Below, in pieces: positions 852-19,710 of a DNA stretch of 21,984 nt. Numbering within the stretch: position 1 is the stretch's first letter; the number at the start of each line of letters is the position of its first letter. This DNA is from a virus. Its lineage: Duplodnaviria > Heunggongvirae > Uroviricota > Caudoviricetes. Where the stretch lies: the IMG/VR virus record IMGVR_UViG_3300012979_000028, positions 1-21,984 of that record; one strand, given 5' to 3'. The notes under the pieces were generated by a model. That model saw only the letters and a program-made list of their open reading frames with translations, searched no databases and was not told the DNA's origin. The position numbers and the translations under genes were made by a program.

Positions 852-3386
852 ATGAGTTTAGTAGCTTGGTATCCTCTTAATGGAACTAAAATAAACAAAG
901 GAATAGCAGATAGTAATTTAATCTGGGATATAGAGCCTACTTATGTAAAAGATAGATGTACTAGAGTTATGACTTCTGGAAAAGGACATCTAGAGGGTGA
1001 ACAAGTTGGAAAAATTCTAGGTTATAAATTCTCTTATTGTGCTTGGATAAAAGTTACTAGTTCTCTTATTCCGGGGATGATATTTGGAAATGACGGGATG
1101 GGAAATGTTGGAAGTATTGCAGTAAATAATAACAGACACTATACATTATTTCATTATCCCACCCGAAACGATTTTCACTGGTATTGGCAAGTAGATTCAA
1201 CTAATATATCTTCCGCACAAGGAGCAATGGCATGTGGTGGTAGATTAACAGGGTTTTTTCCTGACAATACTTGGGTTCATGTAGCTATAACTTACGGAGA
1301 TGGTTATGTAAGGGTGTATAAGGATGGTATTCAAGTTTTTTCAGAAGCTAATACTAATATAAACCCATCTACTATTTCTACTTTTAAATATGCAACAACA
1401 GTATTTCATAACTTGCCTGGAAGAGAAATAAGTGATGTAAGAATCTATAATCATGTACTATCACCTAAAGAAGTAAGTGAAATATCTAAAGGACTCTGCT
1501 GTCATTATAAGTTGGATAGTTTTGGAGGTAGATATGGAAATAAAAACTTACTAAAGAATTCTTGGTATAATGACGGTATATATATGTATTGGAGTGTAAC
1601 GCCTGATATGACTGGTACACTAGAAGATAATGGAGATGGAACTTATACTAGAAAATTTGTAGTTAATTCAAATCCTCCAGACTGGCATTATACTGGAATA
1701 AGTAGTAATATATTTAATCCGAGTAGTATTAAACCAGCGACTAAGTACAATTTTTCTTTCTGGCTGAGGACTAATCGAAGTAGAAATTTTCAAGTTAGTA
1801 TAATAAGACCAAACGCCACATATATATTAACTAACTATATCTACTTCACTAGTATAGGAGATAATCAATGGCATAAGTATTCAGGAGTATTTACAATTAT
1901 ATCAGAGCCAAATTTTAGTGCAGCTCTTGGAGGTCAGATTATATATTTTTATGGACTAGAACTTGAAGGAACCTATGAATACAAGTGGGTAAAACTAGAA
2001 GAAGGTGAGGAGTCTACTGATTGGTGCTGTAATGAAGCTGATACATTATATAAAAAATTAGGATATAATAATTGTGTTGAGGAATGTTCAGGTTTCGTAG
2101 AAGGTACTTATACTACTCCAGGGAATGTAATACTGACTAAAAATTCTCCTATTCATAACTCTTGCTTTAAGTTAGATGGAGCAAATACAGGTACCATTGT
2201 GTTAAAAGCTCCTTGGGAACCTGATACTGAAATAAGTGAATGTACAATTTCTATCTGGGCTTCAACTACAGTAGTGGAATCTAATTACTGGAATTTTTCT
2301 TATAACAAAGGACTTAGAATTAGACCTTACTATACTTGGTCTGATAAATCTGAATGTTCCCTAGATATTATATACTACGATGGAACTATACAGAGATATG
2401 GAACTATTTCTAGATTACCTGCAGACCTGTTAAGTGGAGTTGTTCATAATATCGTACTAACTTGGAAAAACGGTACATTTAAAGGTTACATCGATGGAGT
2501 GTATAAAGGATTATATACAGTAGAATCTTCAATCCTCAAGCCAAACTCCTCTACTTGTATTCTGGGATCTTTTAATGGAACTTCTGAATGTCAGATTGGA
2601 ATATCTAGTGACTTTAGGATTTATTCTACTGCCCTAAGTGATGAAGCTGTTAGAGAATTATACGAAGTAAGAGAAAATATAAGTAATAAAGGTGATGTAG
2701 GAGCTCTTGACTTAATAGATGACACAGGTTCTATACAACTCGGAAAAACTGGATTAATACATTCTCCTATATTTTCAGAGCTTCCAGTGTACTTTGATAA
2801 TAACCTTTATACAGAACAAGATGGTAGTAAATGGGTTCGAGTAGTTCATCATTCAAATCCTGCAACCTACTTATTTAGTTCTACAGATAATTTTACAGCT
2901 CCTTTCTTTACTGATAATAATAGATGGTGGAATATGCCTTTCTGTAATTACTTAAAAAATGGAAACTGGGAAATAATGATTAAACAAATGACAAGTTCTG
3001 GAGGAGATGAAGTTAAGTATAGGTGGATCCAGTATAGTAACCCAATGACTGCAACCTATGAGAGCGTAGATTGGAATAATACAGAAAGAATACTTAGTGA
3101 AGGTTATACTGCTGCAGATGATCTATACGGAGGACTACATTTAATTAGTGGAAGTTATACCTATATCTGCTGTAATAATGGTCATCCTGGTAATTGGTGG
3201 GGTTCTGTAGGTGCTTTCAATCATCATCAGGGAGGTATTCCAGGGTATAGTAATAAAGTAATTACGACTGGTTATCTTGATGTTTATATTCGTGTAGACA
3301 ATCAATTAACAGATACAGCACAACTAACTAAGGCAACTATAGGAAAAACCGGAATTTGTCAAGGAAGAACTTTTATAGAATACTAA
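852..3386 (+). CDS. Multi-domain tail/receptor-binding protein: LamG (concanavalin A-like) x2, central CBM4/9-like beta-sandwich, C-terminal lectin/fibrinogen-like region
   Basis: LamG signatures HVAITY...VYKDG...ISDVRIYNHVLS and HNIVLTW...YIDG...SDFRIYSTALS; CBM-like NLLKNS...YNFSFWLR...QWHKYSGVF...VKLEEGEESTDW; C-terminal DGSKWVRVVHH. Confidence 0.75.
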   Translation: MSLVAWYPLNGTKINKGIADSNLIWDIEPTYVKDRCTRVMTSGKGHLEGEQVGKILGYKFSYCAWIKVTSSLIPGMIFGNDGMGNVGSIAVNNNRHYTLFHYPTRNDFHWYWQVDSTNISSAQGAMACGGRLTGFFPDNTWVHVAITYGDGYVRVYKDGIQVFSEANTNINPSTISTFKYATTVFHNLPGREISDVRIYNHVLSPKEVSEISKGLCCHYKLDSFGGRYGNKNLLKNSWYNDGIYMYWSVTPDMTGTLEDNGDGTYTRKFVVNSNPPDWHYTGISSNIFNPSSIKPATKYNFSFWLRTNRSRNFQVSIIRPNATYILTNYIYFTSIGDNQWHKYSGVFTIISEPNFSAALGGQIIYFYGLELEGTYEYKWVKLEEGEESTDWCCNEADTLYKKLGYNNCVEECSGFVEGTYTTPGNVILTKNSPIHNSCFKLDGANTGTIVLKAPWEPDTEISECTISIWASTTVVESNYWNFSYNKGLRIRPYYTWSDKSECSLDIIYYDGTIQRYGTISRLPADLLSGVVHNIVLTWKNGTFKGYIDGVYKGLYTVESSILKPNSSTCILGSFNGTSECQIGISSDFRIYSTALSDEAVRELYEVRENISNKGDVGALDLIDDTGSIQLGKTGLIHSPIFSELPVYFDNNLYTEQDGSKWVRVVHHSNPATYLFSSTDNFTAPFFTDNNRWWNMPFCNYLKNGNWEIMIKQMTSSGGDEVKYRWIQYSNPMTATYESVDWNNTERILSEGYTAADDLYGGLHLISGSYTYICCNNGHPGNWWGSVGAFNHHQGGIPGYSNKVITTGYLDVYIRVDNQLTDTAQLTKATIGKTGICQGRTFIEY

Positions 3387-8247: not shown

Positions 8248-8931
8248 TCATAAACTTAAACTTCCTAGAATATTATCAATCTCATCTAGCTTGCTATCAT
8301 TACTGTTTTCTTGAATCTTTTTACTAATAACCTTGTCTATGCTATCATTAGTTTCTTTAATCTTCTTGCTATTAGCTTCAATCTCTTTACCATTATTTCT
8401 AATCTTCTCCACCGACTCATTTATGGTTTTGCCCGCACCCTGATGTCTCTTCTGAATACTTTCTGCTACTTGATCTCTAGCTTTTTCAAGGTTATCCCTG
8501 CTTTCGAAGAATTCATCCAACTCTTTCTCTGCTCCTCTGTAAGATTTATTTTCGATAGCATCTACAGCTTTTTTCGTTTTATCAAACCACTCATTTTCTG
8601 CCTCTTTTACAGCACTTTCCAATTGAGCTAATTCACCTTTTTCTACTAGACTTTTCATTCCTAGCTTTTCTCCAAGTTTTTCATAAGCCCTTCCTACCTT
8701 TCCTTGAATCTTATGACCTAGGAATCCTTTTCTCGCAGCTACTAATCCACCTCCGACAGCAGCAGTAGTTCCAGCGACTCCTAATCCAACTTTTGCTGCA
8801 GTTCCTAGTTTTTTCTTCTTTTCTTCATCTTCTTTAGCCGCTTGATATCCCTCGTTAAATGCCTTCTCTTCTATAGCATTAATAAGGTCTTCTTCACTAT
8901 AGATACTAAATACTTTTCTCGTAATTCTCAT
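8248..8931 (-). CDS. Tag-bearing (MRITRKVFS) membrane-anchored coiled-coil protein
   Basis: Gly/Ala hydrophobic segment VGLGVAGTTAAVGGGLVAA flanked by Lys/Arg, then a long charged helical region. Confidence 0.75.
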   Translation of the reverse strand: MRITRKVFSIYSEEDLINAIEEKAFNEGYQAAKEDEEKKKKLGTAAKVGLGVAGTTAAVGGGLVAARKGFLGHKIQGKVGRAYEKLGEKLGMKSLVEKGELAQLESAVKEAENEWFDKTKKAVDAIENKSYRGAEKELDEFFESRDNLEKARDQVAESIQKRHQGAGKTINESVEKIRNNGKEIEANSKKIKETNDSIDKVISKKIQENSNDSKLDEIDNILGSLSL

Positions 8932-18661: not shown

Positions 18662-18722
18662 CATATATAAGGGTTTTAGAGGAGGTGAAAAAAAAAAGAG
18701 AAGATCAATATTAGTCTTCTCT
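18662..18722 (-). promoter_or_regulatory. Terminator plus promoter cassette (CCTCTAAAACCCTTATATATG)
   Basis: AGAGAAGA/TCTTCTCT stem plus T-tract ends the tRNA unit; motif at 18671-18662. Confidence 0.7.
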
Positions 18723-18729
18723 AAAATAG

Positions 18730-18781
18730 TGGCTGGGATGGGACTCGAACCCGTACGGCCTGTTATGGCCACAGGAGTTTA
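18730..18781 (-). tRNA. trnL: 3' half only of tRNA-Leu(UAA), positions 34-73
   Basis: UAA AC UCCUG, long variable arm GGCC-AUAACA-GGCC, T arm ACGGG UUCGAGU CCCAU (one C-A mismatch), acceptor strand CCCAGCC, A73; no encoded CCA. No 5' half found in the window. Confidence 0.8.
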
Positions 18782-19073
18782 CATACCCAACTTACTTTCG
18801 TAAGCACATTTCTGTTTTGGGTTTGGACTATCTCTTTACCATGCAATATTATTTATTGTTTAGGTACTTAATACGTAGTCTCTGAACCTTCCTCTTGGAT
18901 TTCAAATATATAAATATTCTCTTTCTCTAGAGGCTCGGCTGCTGATTGCCCTATATCAGTTATTTTTATAACATTCGCATTATTTATTTCTAAATATGTT
19001 GTAGTTAACTGATCTCTAAGGGTATTCCAGCAATTCTTTAAGTCACTATTATTATTTTTCAATAATAACGACC
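18782..19073 (-). mobile_element. Group I intron catalytic core (IB/IC-like; subgroup not determined)
   Basis: P AAUUGCUGGAA (19035-19025), Q AAUCAGCAG (18947-18939), R GUUCAGAGACUAC (18887-18875), S AAGAGAUAGUCC (18836-18825), P3 ACUUAA/UUAAGU, GAAA-capped P2 and P9 hairpins, terminal G at 18782. Confidence 0.9.
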
Positions 19074-19512
19074 AATTCTTTTCTAAAATTTTGTGTAAAC
19101 AAGCATGATGTTTTCTACTTAAAATAATTAGATTATTTAAACTATTATTACTAGGATTTTCATCTCTGTGATGTACAACCAAATATGGAATTTTAAATCC
19201 TAATAATTTAATAATTTTTTCTCTAGCTAAAGTATATTTACCATCTTTTGATCTTTTTACACGATTATAATTATCTACAGTTTTATGTTTATGCTTTTTA
19301 TAGCAATCAAAACAAGTATCCTGATTTGGTCTATTTTTAATTATAGTTTTTCCACAAAAGATGCATTGTGTTTCACCATAACGTTTTTGAACAAAACCAG
19401 GTTGTCTATATCTATTTCTTGCATATTCTCTTTTGTTTTCTTTCTTACAAGAAGAACAAAATTTATACTCTGTAGATAATTCACATCCACATTTTTGACA
19501 ATATCGTACCAT
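18868..19512 (-). CDS. HNH homing endonuclease with N-terminal Zn-finger-like CxxC pairs
   Basis: VVHHRDENPSNNSLNNLIILSRKHHACLH; CQKC/CSSC/CIFC/CFDC; the 3' end overlaps the intron core. Confidence 0.85.
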   Translation of the reverse strand: MVRYCQKCGCELSTEYKFCSSCKKENKREYARNRYRQPGFVQKRYGETQCIFCGKTIIKNRPNQDTCFDCYKKHKHKTVDNYNRVKRSKDGKYTLAREKIIKLLGFKIPYLVVHHRDENPSNNSLNNLIILSRKHHACLHKILEKNWSLLLKNNNSDLKNCWNTLRDQLTTTYLEINNANVIKITDIGQSAAEPLEKENIYIFEIQEEGSETTY

Positions 19513-19538
19513 AAAATATATTTTTTAGAAAAAAGTTT

Positions 19539-19556
19539 ACGATCCGAGAAGGTGGG
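19539..19556. repeat. 18-nt dispersed repeat, copy 2 (copy 1 at 8986-9003)
   Basis: ACGATCCGAGAAGGTGGG vs ACGATCCGAGAGAGTGGG, 16/18 identical. Confidence 0.65.
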
Positions 19557-19560
19557 AAAA

Positions 19561-19596
19561 GAAAAAATAAAGCCAATCTATCTCAGACTAGCTTTA
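19561..19596 (-). terminator. Terminator, copy 1 of a duplicated 29-nt hairpin
   Basis: TAAAGCTAGTCT/AGATTGGCTTTA plus T-tract; 25/29 identical to 20340-20368. Confidence 0.75.
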
Positions 19597-19649: not shown

Positions 19650-19710
19650 CAAATATAAGAGTTTTAGCCGGTTGAAAAAAAAATAGATAGAGCTTAACGT
19701 ACTCTACCCT
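19650..19710 (-). promoter_or_regulatory. Terminator plus promoter cassette (CTTATATTTG, an exact TAnnTTTG match)
   Basis: GGTAGAGT/GCTCTATC stem plus T9; motif at 19659-19650. Confidence 0.7.

What the first reader, a model, noticed from the sequence alone, without database searches (positions are those of the whole stretch)
18730..19556. Group I ribozyme carrying a 3' half of tRNA-Leu(UAA) with no 5' exon: relic or natural trans-splicing tRNA module
Seen: all core elements (P, Q, R, S, P3, P7, P9, terminal G) look intact and join at 18782/18781 to tRNA positions 34-73. A candidate internal guide GGUC (19073-19070), just 5' of P2, is the complement, with the G-U wobble, of the GACU expected at positions 30-33 of a Leu(UAA) 5' half. 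The HNH gene sits where loop L1 would be. Upstream of the HNH start there is only AT-rich DNA, an 18-nt repeat and a terminator; I found no GGCUGGG-starting D-arm half on either strand of the window. Established: ribozymes lacking a 5' exon can trans-splice their 3' exon onto a target via the guide (engineered Tetrahymena ribozymes), natural trans-spliced group I introns exist in some mitochondria, and the anticodon nuclease PrrC cuts tRNA-Lys at the 33/34 bond. Inference: the unit could splice onto a 5' half encoded elsewhere in the phage, or onto host tRNA-Leu(UAA). The default alternative is deletion of the 5' exon, leaving a pseudo-tRNA; the C50-A64 mismatch and the lack of a clear promoter for the HNH/intron unit fit that.
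Basis: partly seen in the sequence, partly recalled or inferred. Interest (0 to 1): 0.85.

Follow-up and report, generated by a model that had tools for sequence, protein, structure and literature searches.

The report
Headless phage tRNA-Leu intron remnant
A huge rumen phage carries an intact self-splicing intron with its own DNA-cutting enzyme, joined only to the back half of a leucine tRNA, because a recent deletion removed the front half that close relatives still have; it is a broken gene, not a new trans-splicing system.

Summary
On the minus strand, a complete group I intron (19538-18782) carries an HNH gene (19512-18868) in loop L1. It is followed by positions 34-73 of tRNA-Leu(UAA) (18781-18730) and a terminator. 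No 5' half exists in the window or in the 184-kb record.

- A syntenic relative (L019, HNH 96% identical) and about 30 other loci carry the 5' exon (GGCTGGG...CAGGACT) in cis, 24 nt upstream of the HNH start.
- A bovine-gut contig that is 99.5% identical over HNH and intron also has the 5' exon in cis.
- Intron-less relatives (L014-L016) have an intact tRNA-Leu at the same place.

In the window, the leader of a neighbouring 192-aa gene is fused directly to the first intron nucleotide. The deletion removed that gene, the tRNA promoter and the whole 5' exon.

The junction is reproduced in an independent Logan contig (L197), so it is not a scaffolding artefact. However, only one sequencing run holds it.

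The ribozyme is intact (2 of 64 covariation-supported pairs broken). The T stem is uniquely mismatched (0 of 26 relatives).

This scan has already noted the intron family about 139 times on other DNA. Verdict: a recent deletion relic of low interest.

The parts
19650..19657 (-). Bacteroides-type -7 promoter box TATATTTG of a repeated terminator-promoter-leader cassette. In relatives it drives the 192/184-aa gene; here it is the only promoter-like element upstream of the HNH-intron unit.
   Evidence: Read from the sequence. The same cassette lies upstream of the 192-aa ORF in L014 and L008. Promoter function is inferred from the TAnnTTTG consensus (own knowledge).
19540..19596 (-). Leader hairpin (AAAGCTAGTCT...AGATTGGCTTT), T run and the last 16 nt (CCCACCTTCTCGGATCG) of the neighbour gene's leader. 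This sequence now stands where the 5' exon should be.
   Evidence: It aligns with L014 up to position 3119 and with L008 up to 4718; in those loci it is followed by a T run and the 192/182-aa ORF.
19538..19539 (-). Deletion junction: T 19539 (position -1, shared by both parents) joined to A 19538, the first intron nucleotide.
   Evidence: The window is colinear with L019 from L019 position 2976 (last exon base) onward at 91.3% identity. The junction is reproduced letter for letter in Logan contig L197.
18782..19538 (-). Complete 757-nt group I intron, from the first nucleotide to the terminal G.
   Evidence: Homologous end to end with the 755-nt intron that ARAGORN delimits in L019 (2977-3731). 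It is 95.2% identical over HNH, intron and 3' exon.
18868..19512 (-). HNH homing-endonuclease gene (214 aa) in loop L1. Its last ~70 codons overlap P1' to P7 of the ribozyme, and the stop TAA lies inside P3'.
   Evidence: Pfam HNH_3. There are 155 full-length homologues. In alignment A1 the ribozyme-overlapping tail is the most conserved part.
19527..19534 (-). 5' strand of the P1 extension (UUUUUUCU), pairing with AGAAAAGA at 19084-19077.
   Evidence: Read from the sequence. The L019 counterpart is UUUUUCU with AGAAAAA. This pairing is inferred.
19070..19084 (-). 3' strand of P1: AGAAAAGA-A-UU-GGUC. The internal guide GGUC is at 19073-19070; here it has no cognate exon partner.
   Evidence: It pairs with exon GACU in cis relatives. 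The guide reads GAGUC where the exon ends GACUU.
19049..19068 (-). P2 hairpin (UUAUUAUU GAAA AAUAAUAA).
   Evidence: 8 pairs, 7 of them with compensatory changes in at least one sequence across 23 sequences.
18867..19042 (-). P3 (19042-38 / 18871-67) enclosing P4 (19032-27 / 18945-40), P5 (19022-20 / 18951-49), the P5 extension, P6 (18939-37 / 18888-86) and P6a.
   Evidence: RNAalifold consensus with covariation. P3 has 5 of 5 pairs with compensatory changes.
18826..18880 (-). P7 (GACUA 18880-76 with UAGUC 18830-26) enclosing P8 (18866-63 / 18840-37).
   Evidence: The conserved R and S elements are invariant in A2. P8 covaries. The P7 pairing was read by eye.
18782..18822 (-). P9 domain (18822-18 / 18789-85, with two internal hairpins) and the terminal G at 18782.
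18730..18781 (-). tRNA-Leu(UAA) 3' half, U34 to A73: anticodon UAA, 3' anticodon-stem strand, long variable arm, T arm with the C50xA64 mismatch (A at 18739), and 3' acceptor strand CCCAGCC.
   Evidence: It aligns with the 3' exons of 26 intron-bearing tRNA-Leu genes. ARAGORN and RF00005 call no tRNA here.
18688..18722 (-). Intrinsic terminator (AGAGAAGA...UCUUCUCU plus a U run) directly after the tRNA half.
   Evidence: Read from the sequence. It is conserved in L014 and L019.

Best explanation
This is a recent deletion derivative of an ordinary, cis-spliced, intron-bearing phage tRNA-Leu(UAA) gene.

The ancestor had the order: promoter and leader, a 192-aa gene, the tRNA promoter, the 5' exon (GGCTGGG...CAGGACT), then a group I intron with HNH in L1, the 3' exon and a terminator.

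A deletion of about 0.74 kb removed the 192-aa gene, the tRNA promoter and the whole 5' exon. Its right end lies exactly at the 5' splice site (plus or minus the one shared T). The neighbour's leader is therefore fused to the first intron nucleotide.

What remains is an intact HNH gene and an intact ribozyme, now transcribed from the captured promoter, followed by a tRNA 3' half that cannot become a tRNA.

Of the exon part of P1, only the U-G wobble survives (UCGU instead of GACU opposite GGUC). Normal splicing is therefore not expected. At most there would be inefficient 5' cleavage or hydrolysis at the 3' splice site.

Shown: the anatomy, the cis form in relatives, the deletion end points and the presence of the junction in reads. 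Inferred: the loss of tRNA function, transcription from the captured promoter and the residual ribozyme chemistry.
For: 1. The cis form exists in the nearest relatives.
- L019 is a syntenic 338-kb scaffold with HNH 96% identical. It has the 5' exon at 2943-2976 directly before AAACTTTTTCTAAAAATATATTTTATG, and ARAGORN calls tRNA-Leu(taa) i(35,755).
- Bovine-gut contigs (runs X1, X2, X5) run on past 19534 into the reverse complement of GTGAAATTGGTAGACACTCAGGACT. The X2 contig differs from the window at only 4 letters and one 3-nt gap over 18680-19534.

2. Every informative locus with a homologous HNH-intron has the exon in cis. This covers about 30 loci from ARAGORN plus L122, L124, L130 and L137 by eye.

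3. Intron-less relatives L014-L016 have an intact tRNA-Leu(UAA) at the same place, preceded by the 192-aa ORF. More distant relatives L010, L012 and L013 also have tRNA-Leu(UAA) there.

4. Break points.
- Window 20415-19539 aligns with L014 2254-3119.
- Window 19539-15868 aligns with L019 2976-6643.
- The window lacks everything between.

5. The junction is real. Logan contig L197 (k=31 graph of run SRR6059713) contains it, together with the whole unit including A64.

6. There is no 5' half and no orthologue of the 192-aa gene anywhere in the 184-kb record.

7. The T stem is mismatched only here: 0 of 26 relatives show a mismatch.

8. The ribozyme is intact, with 2 of 64 pairs broken against 0-9 in cis relatives. 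This fits a recent event.
Against: - The record is only about 49% complete, so a 5' half in the unseen part cannot be excluded.
- The junction is seen in one sequencing run only, probably the window's own sample. Its frequency in the phage population is unknown.
- A deletion end point falling exactly on the splice site is an unlikely coincidence for a random deletion and hints at an intron- or HNH-related mechanism that I could not identify.
- The HNH gene and ribozyme show no decay, so continued selection on them is not excluded.
Confidence: 0.85

Rival explanations
1. Natural trans-splicing module. The exon-less ribozyme with its 3' half splices onto a tRNA-Leu 5' half supplied in trans, from the unseen half of the genome, a co-infecting phage or the host. 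The partner would be held by acceptor-stem and anticodon-stem pairing plus GACU:GGUC.
For: - The ribozyme, guide, terminal G and 3' half are intact apart from one T-stem mismatch.
- The record is about 49% complete.
- Pairing of tRNA halves could in principle position a trans 5' half. This is inference from split-tRNA and engineered trans-splicing ribozymes (own knowledge).
Against: - The nearest relatives, up to 99.5% identical, are cis, so the state is very young and there has been no time to evolve a partner gene.
- There is no 5' half in 184 kb.
- No representative genome of 185,579 bacterial and archaeal species has GGCTGGG...CAGGACTTAAACTCCTG. The anticodon stem-loop alone occurs in only 16.
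- Known natural trans-spliced group I introns are split inside the intron. This one is whole and lacks only the exon.
- The T stem carries a mismatch that no functional relative has.
- The same deletion also removed an unrelated gene and the tRNA promoter.
Confidence: 0.04
2. Assembly artefact or rare defective molecule. The true dominant genome has the cis 5' exon, and the headless join is a misjoin or a minority variant that the assembler happened to follow.
For: - No indexed public run other than the probable source holds the junction words.
- The best-holding runs show the cis form.
- Earlier follow-ups in this scan found 'headless' genes that were contig-join artefacts.
Against: - The two sides share only one base at the junction, so a de Bruijn graph could not join them by mistake.
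- An independent k=31 Logan contig (L197) spans the junction with 52 nt on one side and 890 nt on the other.
- The window has private substitutions in the adjacent exon (18739, 18744, 18731) that mark a distinct lineage.
Confidence: 0.05
3. The remnant is retained for its endonuclease. After the deletion the HNH gene behaves as a free-standing homing endonuclease under a captured promoter, with the ribozyme and tRNA half as its 3' untranslated tail. It may still cut intron-less tRNA-Leu alleles of competing phages and spread the headless allele by gene conversion.

As to origin, the allele could itself be the product of one aberrant homing repair: homologous on the 3' side with the tract ending in the T loop, and illegitimate on the 5' side.
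For: - The HNH ORF is full length and 96% identical to that of the cis relative.
- The unit sits behind a promoter and leader.
- The window's two T-arm differences from its nearest cis relatives (G59, A64) are the states found in the intron-less L014 allele, as expected if a conversion tract ended in the T loop.
- The 10 nt before the junction (CTCGGATCGT) loosely resemble the true exon end (CTCAGGACT).
Against: - There is no switch in flank similarity between L014-like and L019-like sequence on either side.
- The allele is seen in one sample only.
- The cleavage site and activity of this HNH are unknown.
- The resemblance at the junction is weak and could be chance.
Confidence: 0.06

Closest known systems
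HNH-encoding group I introns in phage tRNA-Leu(UAA) genes. This large family was seen here in about 30 loci and noted about 139 times earlier in this scan. The 2014 review PMC3984707 still states that all phage introns known then were in protein-coding genes. The Lak-phage preprint 10.1101/356790 calls phage tRNA introns 'enigmatic'.
   Same: The intron is the same from first nucleotide to terminal G. HNH lies in L1 and reads into the core. The guide is GGUC, the insertion site is between U33 and U34, and the 3' exon and terminator match. It is syntenic with L019.
   Different: The 5' exon, the tRNA promoter and the upstream 192-aa gene are deleted. The T stem carries a mismatch found in none of 26 relatives.
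[quoted passage not shown]
   Same: A group I intron in the anticodon loop of tRNA-Leu(UAA).
   Different: The classical intron lies between U34 and A35 and usually has no ORF. This one lies between U33 and U34, carries an HNH gene in L1, and its core is most similar by blastn to introns of phage protein genes such as Twort nrdE. Some distant members of the phage family do use 34/35, with a shifted guide.
Natural trans-spliced group I introns of organelles (for example cox1 in placozoans and lycophytes; own knowledge) and engineered trans-splicing Tetrahymena ribozymes
   Same: A ribozyme carrying a 3' exon without a covalently attached 5' exon.
   Different: Natural cases are broken inside an intron loop, and both pieces with their exons are encoded and conserved in the genome. 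Here the intron is whole, no partner is found, and the state arose by a very recent deletion. Engineered ribozymes start at the guide sequence. This RNA keeps its own P1 5' strand and a 430-nt L1 with an ORF.
Truncated or 'headless' intron-bearing genes left by deletion between or next to mobile introns (for example earlier scan note e1-1840903, a phage intron joining mismatched tRNA halves)
   Same: A structurally intact intron flanked by an exon remnant that cannot give a functional product.
   Different: Here one exon is missing entirely and the break coincides with the splice site to within one base.

Membership tests
Group I intron (Rfam RF00028 Intron_gpI) | Score at or above the Rfam gathering threshold (50 bits) | tested here: not met
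   26.7 bits, E 1.8e-4, for 19078-18801. There is no match at the gathering threshold, and the locus is not listed in the whole-record search. The model is cut short by the long L1 with its ORF and by the AT-rich peripheral helices.
Group I intron (Rfam RF00028 Intron_gpI) | Conserved core helices P3-P9 supported by covariation, including the P/Q/R/S elements | tested here: met
   23-sequence alignment A2: 64 consensus pairs, 42 with compensatory changes. The window breaks 2. The R (GGTTCAGAGACTA) and S (AGATAGTCC) elements are present.
Group I intron (Rfam RF00028 Intron_gpI) | P1 with a U-G wobble at the 5' splice site formed by the exon end and an internal guide, and a terminal G before the 3' exon | tested here: inconclusive
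   The terminal G (18782), the guide GGUC and U at position -1 are present. However, positions -2 to -4 are UCG instead of GAC, so 3 of the 4 exon pairs are lost. In cis relatives the feature is met, and the guide differs between the two insertion registers.
Group I intron (Rfam RF00028 Intron_gpI) | Self-splicing activity | not testable with these tools
   Needs in vitro transcription with GTP and Mg2+.
Phage tRNA-Leu(UAA) HNH-intron family | Homologous HNH ORF in L1 reading into the ribozyme core | tested here: met
   155 homologues cover 100% of the 214 aa, and the closest is 96% identical.
Phage tRNA-Leu(UAA) HNH-intron family | Both tRNA exons present in cis, so that splicing yields tRNA-Leu(UAA) | tested here: not met
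   The 5' exon is absent. It is present in all informative relatives.
tRNA (RF00005 / ARAGORN) | Complete cloverleaf | tested here: not met
   There are no tRNA calls in the window or the record. Only positions 34-73 are present.
Natural trans-spliced group I intron | A partner locus encoding the 5' exon (with or without a 5' intron piece), conserved among relatives | tested here: not met
   No partner is found in 184 kb, and relatives are cis. The unseen half of the genome could not be tested.
Natural trans-spliced group I intron | Chimeric spliced RNA product | not testable with these tools
   No raw RNA reads of this strain were available. The one RNA run laid (X9) holds only a relative's contig covering 18690-18881.
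HNH_3 endonuclease (Pfam PF13392) | Score above the Pfam gathering threshold | tested here: met
   26.9 bits against a cut-off of 24.8, residues 111-137. H114, H115, N123, N127, H136 and H140 are invariant in A1.

The most novel reading that the evidence does not exclude
The headless unit is still active. Either the intact ribozyme uses its free guide, together with acceptor- and anticodon-stem pairing of its 3' half, to trans-splice onto tRNA-Leu 5' halves from a co-infecting phage, the host or the unseen part of the genome. Or the allele is a selfish 'tRNA-killing' homing allele that spreads through its HNH enzyme while deleting the recipient's 5' exon and neighbouring gene.
Probability: 0.04. 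Interest if true: 0.8.

Novelty: new member of a known kind. Interest (0 to 1): 0.22.

Why it matters
A natural trans-splicing group I ribozyme in a phage would have been a first. The evidence shows instead a freshly broken copy of a common mobile intron.

The modest value lies in three points:
- It catches intron-associated gene loss almost in the act. A 99.5%-identical relative is still intact, and the break point falls exactly on the 5' splice site.
- It shows that the last tRNA gene at this locus in this phage lineage is dispensable, at least in the short term.
- It adds a well-resolved example to a very abundant family of HNH-bearing tRNA-Leu introns in phages. I found no description of this family in the papers I searched.

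Tried and rejected
- Rfam at gathering threshold found nothing. The sub-threshold LOOT, ncr1241, snoR127 and tmRNA matches in 18691-18866 overlap P8-P9, the exon or the terminator and are chance.
- An exact T-arm pattern and the single 176-aa neighbour protein found nothing in viral contigs. The single HNH protein found only distant HNH domains there.
- The 192-aa ORF of L014 is not an HNH homologue.
- The junction-centred run search failed at 61 nt. At 101 nt it found no holder with more than 1 of 7 words. This gives no independent sample for the junction, but it is no proof of absence.
- Contigs of runs X1, X2, X5 and X9 do not bridge 19535-19562. They represent relatives, so this says nothing about the window's own strain.
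- The genome search could not open the records behind L019, L013 and L010. I therefore could not count the tRNAs in a complete relative.
- The 17-nt 5'-exon word in viral contigs gave one chance match in a GC-rich coding region (L200).
- Sliding identity of the flanks against L014 and L019 showed no clear recombination switch. 'Aberrant homing' versus 'simple deletion' therefore stays open.
- The literature searches found no description of this intron family or of a headless copy.
Full report
**What is there**

Everything lies on the minus strand of the window. Reading 5' to 3':
- the terminator of a 176-aa gene;
- a promoter-like box TATATTTG (19657-19650);
- a leader hairpin and T run (about 19596-19561);
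- 16 nt of leader ending ...CTCGGATCGT (T at 19539);
- AAACTTTTTTCTAAAAAATATATTTT, followed by the start of a 214-aa HNH gene (19512-18868; Pfam HNH_3);
- a group I ribozyme core;
- the terminal G (18782);
- 52 nt that are positions 34-73 of a tRNA-Leu(UAA) (18781-18730);
- an intrinsic terminator (18722-18688).

ARAGORN finds no tRNA in the window. Rfam finds nothing at gathering threshold. In a local search the group I model matches 19078-18801 at 26.7 bits, E 1.8e-4.

**Genome context**

The window is the start of a 184-kb virus record, estimated 49% complete and 33% G+C. The record holds at least seven other group I introns. Earlier notes of this scan describe it as a huge gut-type phage of Bacteroidales with many introns. 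That agrees with the published intron load of 'Jug' phages (PMC12880540).

The whole record has no tRNA gene (RF00005 and ARAGORN). It has no GGCTGGG...CAGGACT pattern. It has no match longer than 12 nt to the relatives' 5' exon.

**Relatives decide the question**

The neighbouring 176-aa and 141-aa proteins have many homologues. I fetched their contigs.
- Close relatives L014, L015 and L016 (141-aa neighbour 95% identical) have an intact, uninterrupted tRNA-Leu(UAA) at the same place. It is preceded by an unrelated 192-aa ORF, and there is no HNH and no intron.
- More distant relatives L010, L012 and L013 also have tRNA-Leu(UAA) there, with one or two further tRNAs.

The HNH protein has 155 homologues that cover its whole length. 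The best one (96% identical) lies in L019, a syntenic locus of a 338-kb scaffold. There the order is:
1. a 176-aa gene, a 61-aa ORF and a 184-aa ORF;
2. GGCTGGGTGGTGAAATTGGTAGACACTCAGGACT;
3. AAACTTTTTCTAAAAATATATTTT, followed by the HNH start;
4. the ribozyme and the 3' exon.

With introns allowed, ARAGORN calls this tRNA-Leu(taa) with a 755-nt intron after nucleotide 34.

The same architecture is found in about 30 further loci from ENA, Logan, IMG/VR and JGI metagenomes. Loci that ARAGORN missed were read by eye, and all the informative ones also have the exon in cis (L122, L124, L130, L137). The others are cut by a contig end or are free-standing HNH genes without a ribozyme.

**The deletion**

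Window 20415-19539 aligns with L014 2254-3119 (91.8%). Window 19539-15868 aligns with L019 2976-6643 (91.3%). L019 position 2976 is the last base of the 5' exon.

In the three-way alignment the window follows the L014/L008-type leader up to ...CTCGGATCGT. It then continues with the first intron base. In L014 and L008 that leader continues with a T run and the 192/182-aa ORF.

Relative to both kinds of relative, the window therefore lacks the 192-aa gene, the short tRNA promoter region and the whole 5' exon. That is about 0.74 kb in L014 coordinates. The two parents share only one base (T) at the junction, so the right-hand end point coincides with the 5' splice site to within one nucleotide. 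The record holds only paralogues that share the 192-aa protein's N-terminal 35-54 residues, and no orthologue.

**Is the junction real?**

The best-holding public runs (bovine gut) carry relatives, not this strain. Their contigs leave the window at 19534 and continue into the reverse complement of GTGAAATTGGTAGACACTCAGGACT, which is the cis exon.

One of these contigs (X2) differs from the window at only 4 letters and one 3-nt gap over 18680-19534. The intact ancestor-like form is therefore about 99.5% identical, and the deletion must be recent.

No indexed run holds the junction words. However, the window's exact HNH protein is encoded on a 942-nt Logan contig (L197, run SRR6059713). That contig reproduces the junction and the whole unit letter for letter, including the T-stem mismatch. 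The window's exact 141-aa and 176-aa proteins occur only in the same run, so this is probably the source sample.

It is nevertheless an independent k=31 assembly. With one base of overlap at the junction, no graph or scaffolding artefact could produce it. I therefore take the deletion as real DNA. Its frequency in the population is unknown.

**State of the parts**

- *Ribozyme.* An alignment of the window with 22 homologous introns (A2) gives an RNAalifold consensus of 64 pairs, covering P2, P3, P4, P5 with its extension, P6, P6a, P8 and P9 with two hairpins. Of these, 42 have compensatory changes. The window breaks 2 of them, against 0-9 in the cis relatives. P7 (GACUA/UAGUC) is intact by eye.
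- *Guide and P1.* The guide GGUC (19073-19070) pairs with the exon end GACU in cis relatives. The adjacent UU and AGAAAAGA pair with the intron's own AA and UUUUUUCU.
- *Guide versus register.* In family members where the exon ends GACUU (intron between U34 and A35), the guide reads GAGUC instead of UGGUC. This supports the assignment.
- *Exon part of P1 in the window.* It reads UCGU, so only the U-G wobble is left.
- *tRNA half.* It has a C50xA64 mismatch (A at 18739). All 26 distinct relatives have a fully paired T stem. Relative to the nearest cis contigs, the window's private changes cluster in this exon (18739 and 18744). Both are the states seen in the intron-less L014 allele. This fits either relaxed constraint or a conversion tract that ended in the T loop.

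**Mechanism**

The most likely reading (0.85) is a recent deletion that killed the tRNA gene. It left the HNH gene and the ribozyme intact behind the captured promoter and leader of the deleted neighbour. Splicing needs the exon part of P1, so I expect at most weak 5' cleavage or 3' splice-site hydrolysis. These chemical steps are inferred, not shown.

How the end point came to lie on the splice site is unexplained. Three possibilities are open:
- chance;
- weak similarity between the leader end (CTCGGATCGT) and the exon end (CTCAGGACT);
- an aberrant repair of an HNH-induced break.

Flank identities give no clear recombination signal.

**Trans-splicing (0.04)**

Several points speak against it:
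- There is no partner in 184 kb.
- The near-identical relatives are cis.
- The same deletion removed an unrelated gene and the tRNA promoter.
- The T stem is mismatched.
- No representative genome of 185,579 bacterial and archaeal species has a tRNA with this acceptor strand and anticodon stem-loop. The stem-loop alone occurs in only 16.

It cannot be fully excluded, because half of the genome is unseen.

**Comparison with what is known**

The 2014 review of bacterial group I introns states that all phage introns known then were in protein-coding genes (PMC3984707). The Lak-phage preprint reports 'enigmatic' tRNA introns (10.1101/356790). My searches found no paper that describes HNH-bearing group I introns in phage tRNA-Leu genes.

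This scan itself has already noted the family about 139 times on other DNA, including the 33/34 register and the HNH gene reading through the core.

The present locus is a truncated member of that family. It is a new member of a known kind, and as a broken copy it is of low interest. The only curiosities are the exact coincidence of the break with the splice site and how recent the event is.

Noticed in passing
window 19078-18868 (minus strand); alignment A1: The last ~70 codons of the HNH gene are also P1', P2, P3, P4-P6 and the 5' strand of P7 of the ribozyme. In 41 homologues this tail is the most conserved part of the protein (NCWN, GQSAAEP, EEGSET). In many homologues the frame runs on through P8 and P7' (DIVQTQ). 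The conservation is probably RNA constraint rather than protein function.
   Followed up: partly
L044, L045, L131, L132, L133, L134, L135, L138 compared with L019-L043: The family uses two insertion registers. One lies between U33 and U34 (exon end GACU, guide UGGUC). The other is the classical U34/A35 site (exon end GACUU, guide GAGUC). ARAGORN mislabels some members as tRNA-Phe(GAA) or tRNA-Gly(CCC); their long variable arms show that they are tRNA-Leu(UAA).
   Followed up: partly
L014 3825-3909, L016 323-407: The intron-less tRNA-Leu(UAA) allele of close relatives differs from the intron-bearing allele at many positions in the D arm, anticodon stem and variable arm. It also has an A31-C39 mismatch. 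It may be an allele that the HNH enzyme no longer recognises.
   Followed up: no
window 19700-19560, 18722-18650, and similar places at about 17500, 18250 and 20300: A repeated cassette stands between most genes here: terminator, CTAAAAC(T/C)CTTATAT(T/A)TGAA (containing a Bacteroides-type -7 box TAnnTTTG) and a leader. These repeats are also where Logan contigs of the source run break (L197-L199).
   Followed up: partly
G000 C1 8931-8836 (window ORF 8248-8931), 32142-32014, 114644-114498, 139692-139585, 140454-140305: The N-terminal 35-54 residues of the deleted 192/184-aa protein are shared (60-90% identity) with at least five other ORFs of this genome. This looks like a family with a common N-terminal module and variable tails.
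   Followed up: no
L043 1350-1829; L130 about 1400-1890: Members of the same intron family occur with the HNH gene deleted (a 480-nt intron) or truncated. The endonuclease is therefore lost repeatedly while the ribozyme persists.
   Followed up: no
L139 1501-2091; L047/L140 1501-2004: Homologous HNH genes stand free, without a ribozyme, next to tRNA clusters. In L139 the cluster includes an intact tRNA-Leu(UAA).
   Followed up: no
L010 211-2703, L017 278-2767, compared with L008/L013/L014: In some relatives the topoisomerase IV-type subunit upstream of this locus carries an intein with an HNH domain (829-830 aa). In others it does not (449-451 aa).
   Followed up: no
L019 2020-2205: L019 has an extra 61-aa ORF inserted into the leader between the 176-aa gene and the 184-aa gene. 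It is absent from the window, L014 and L008.
   Followed up: no
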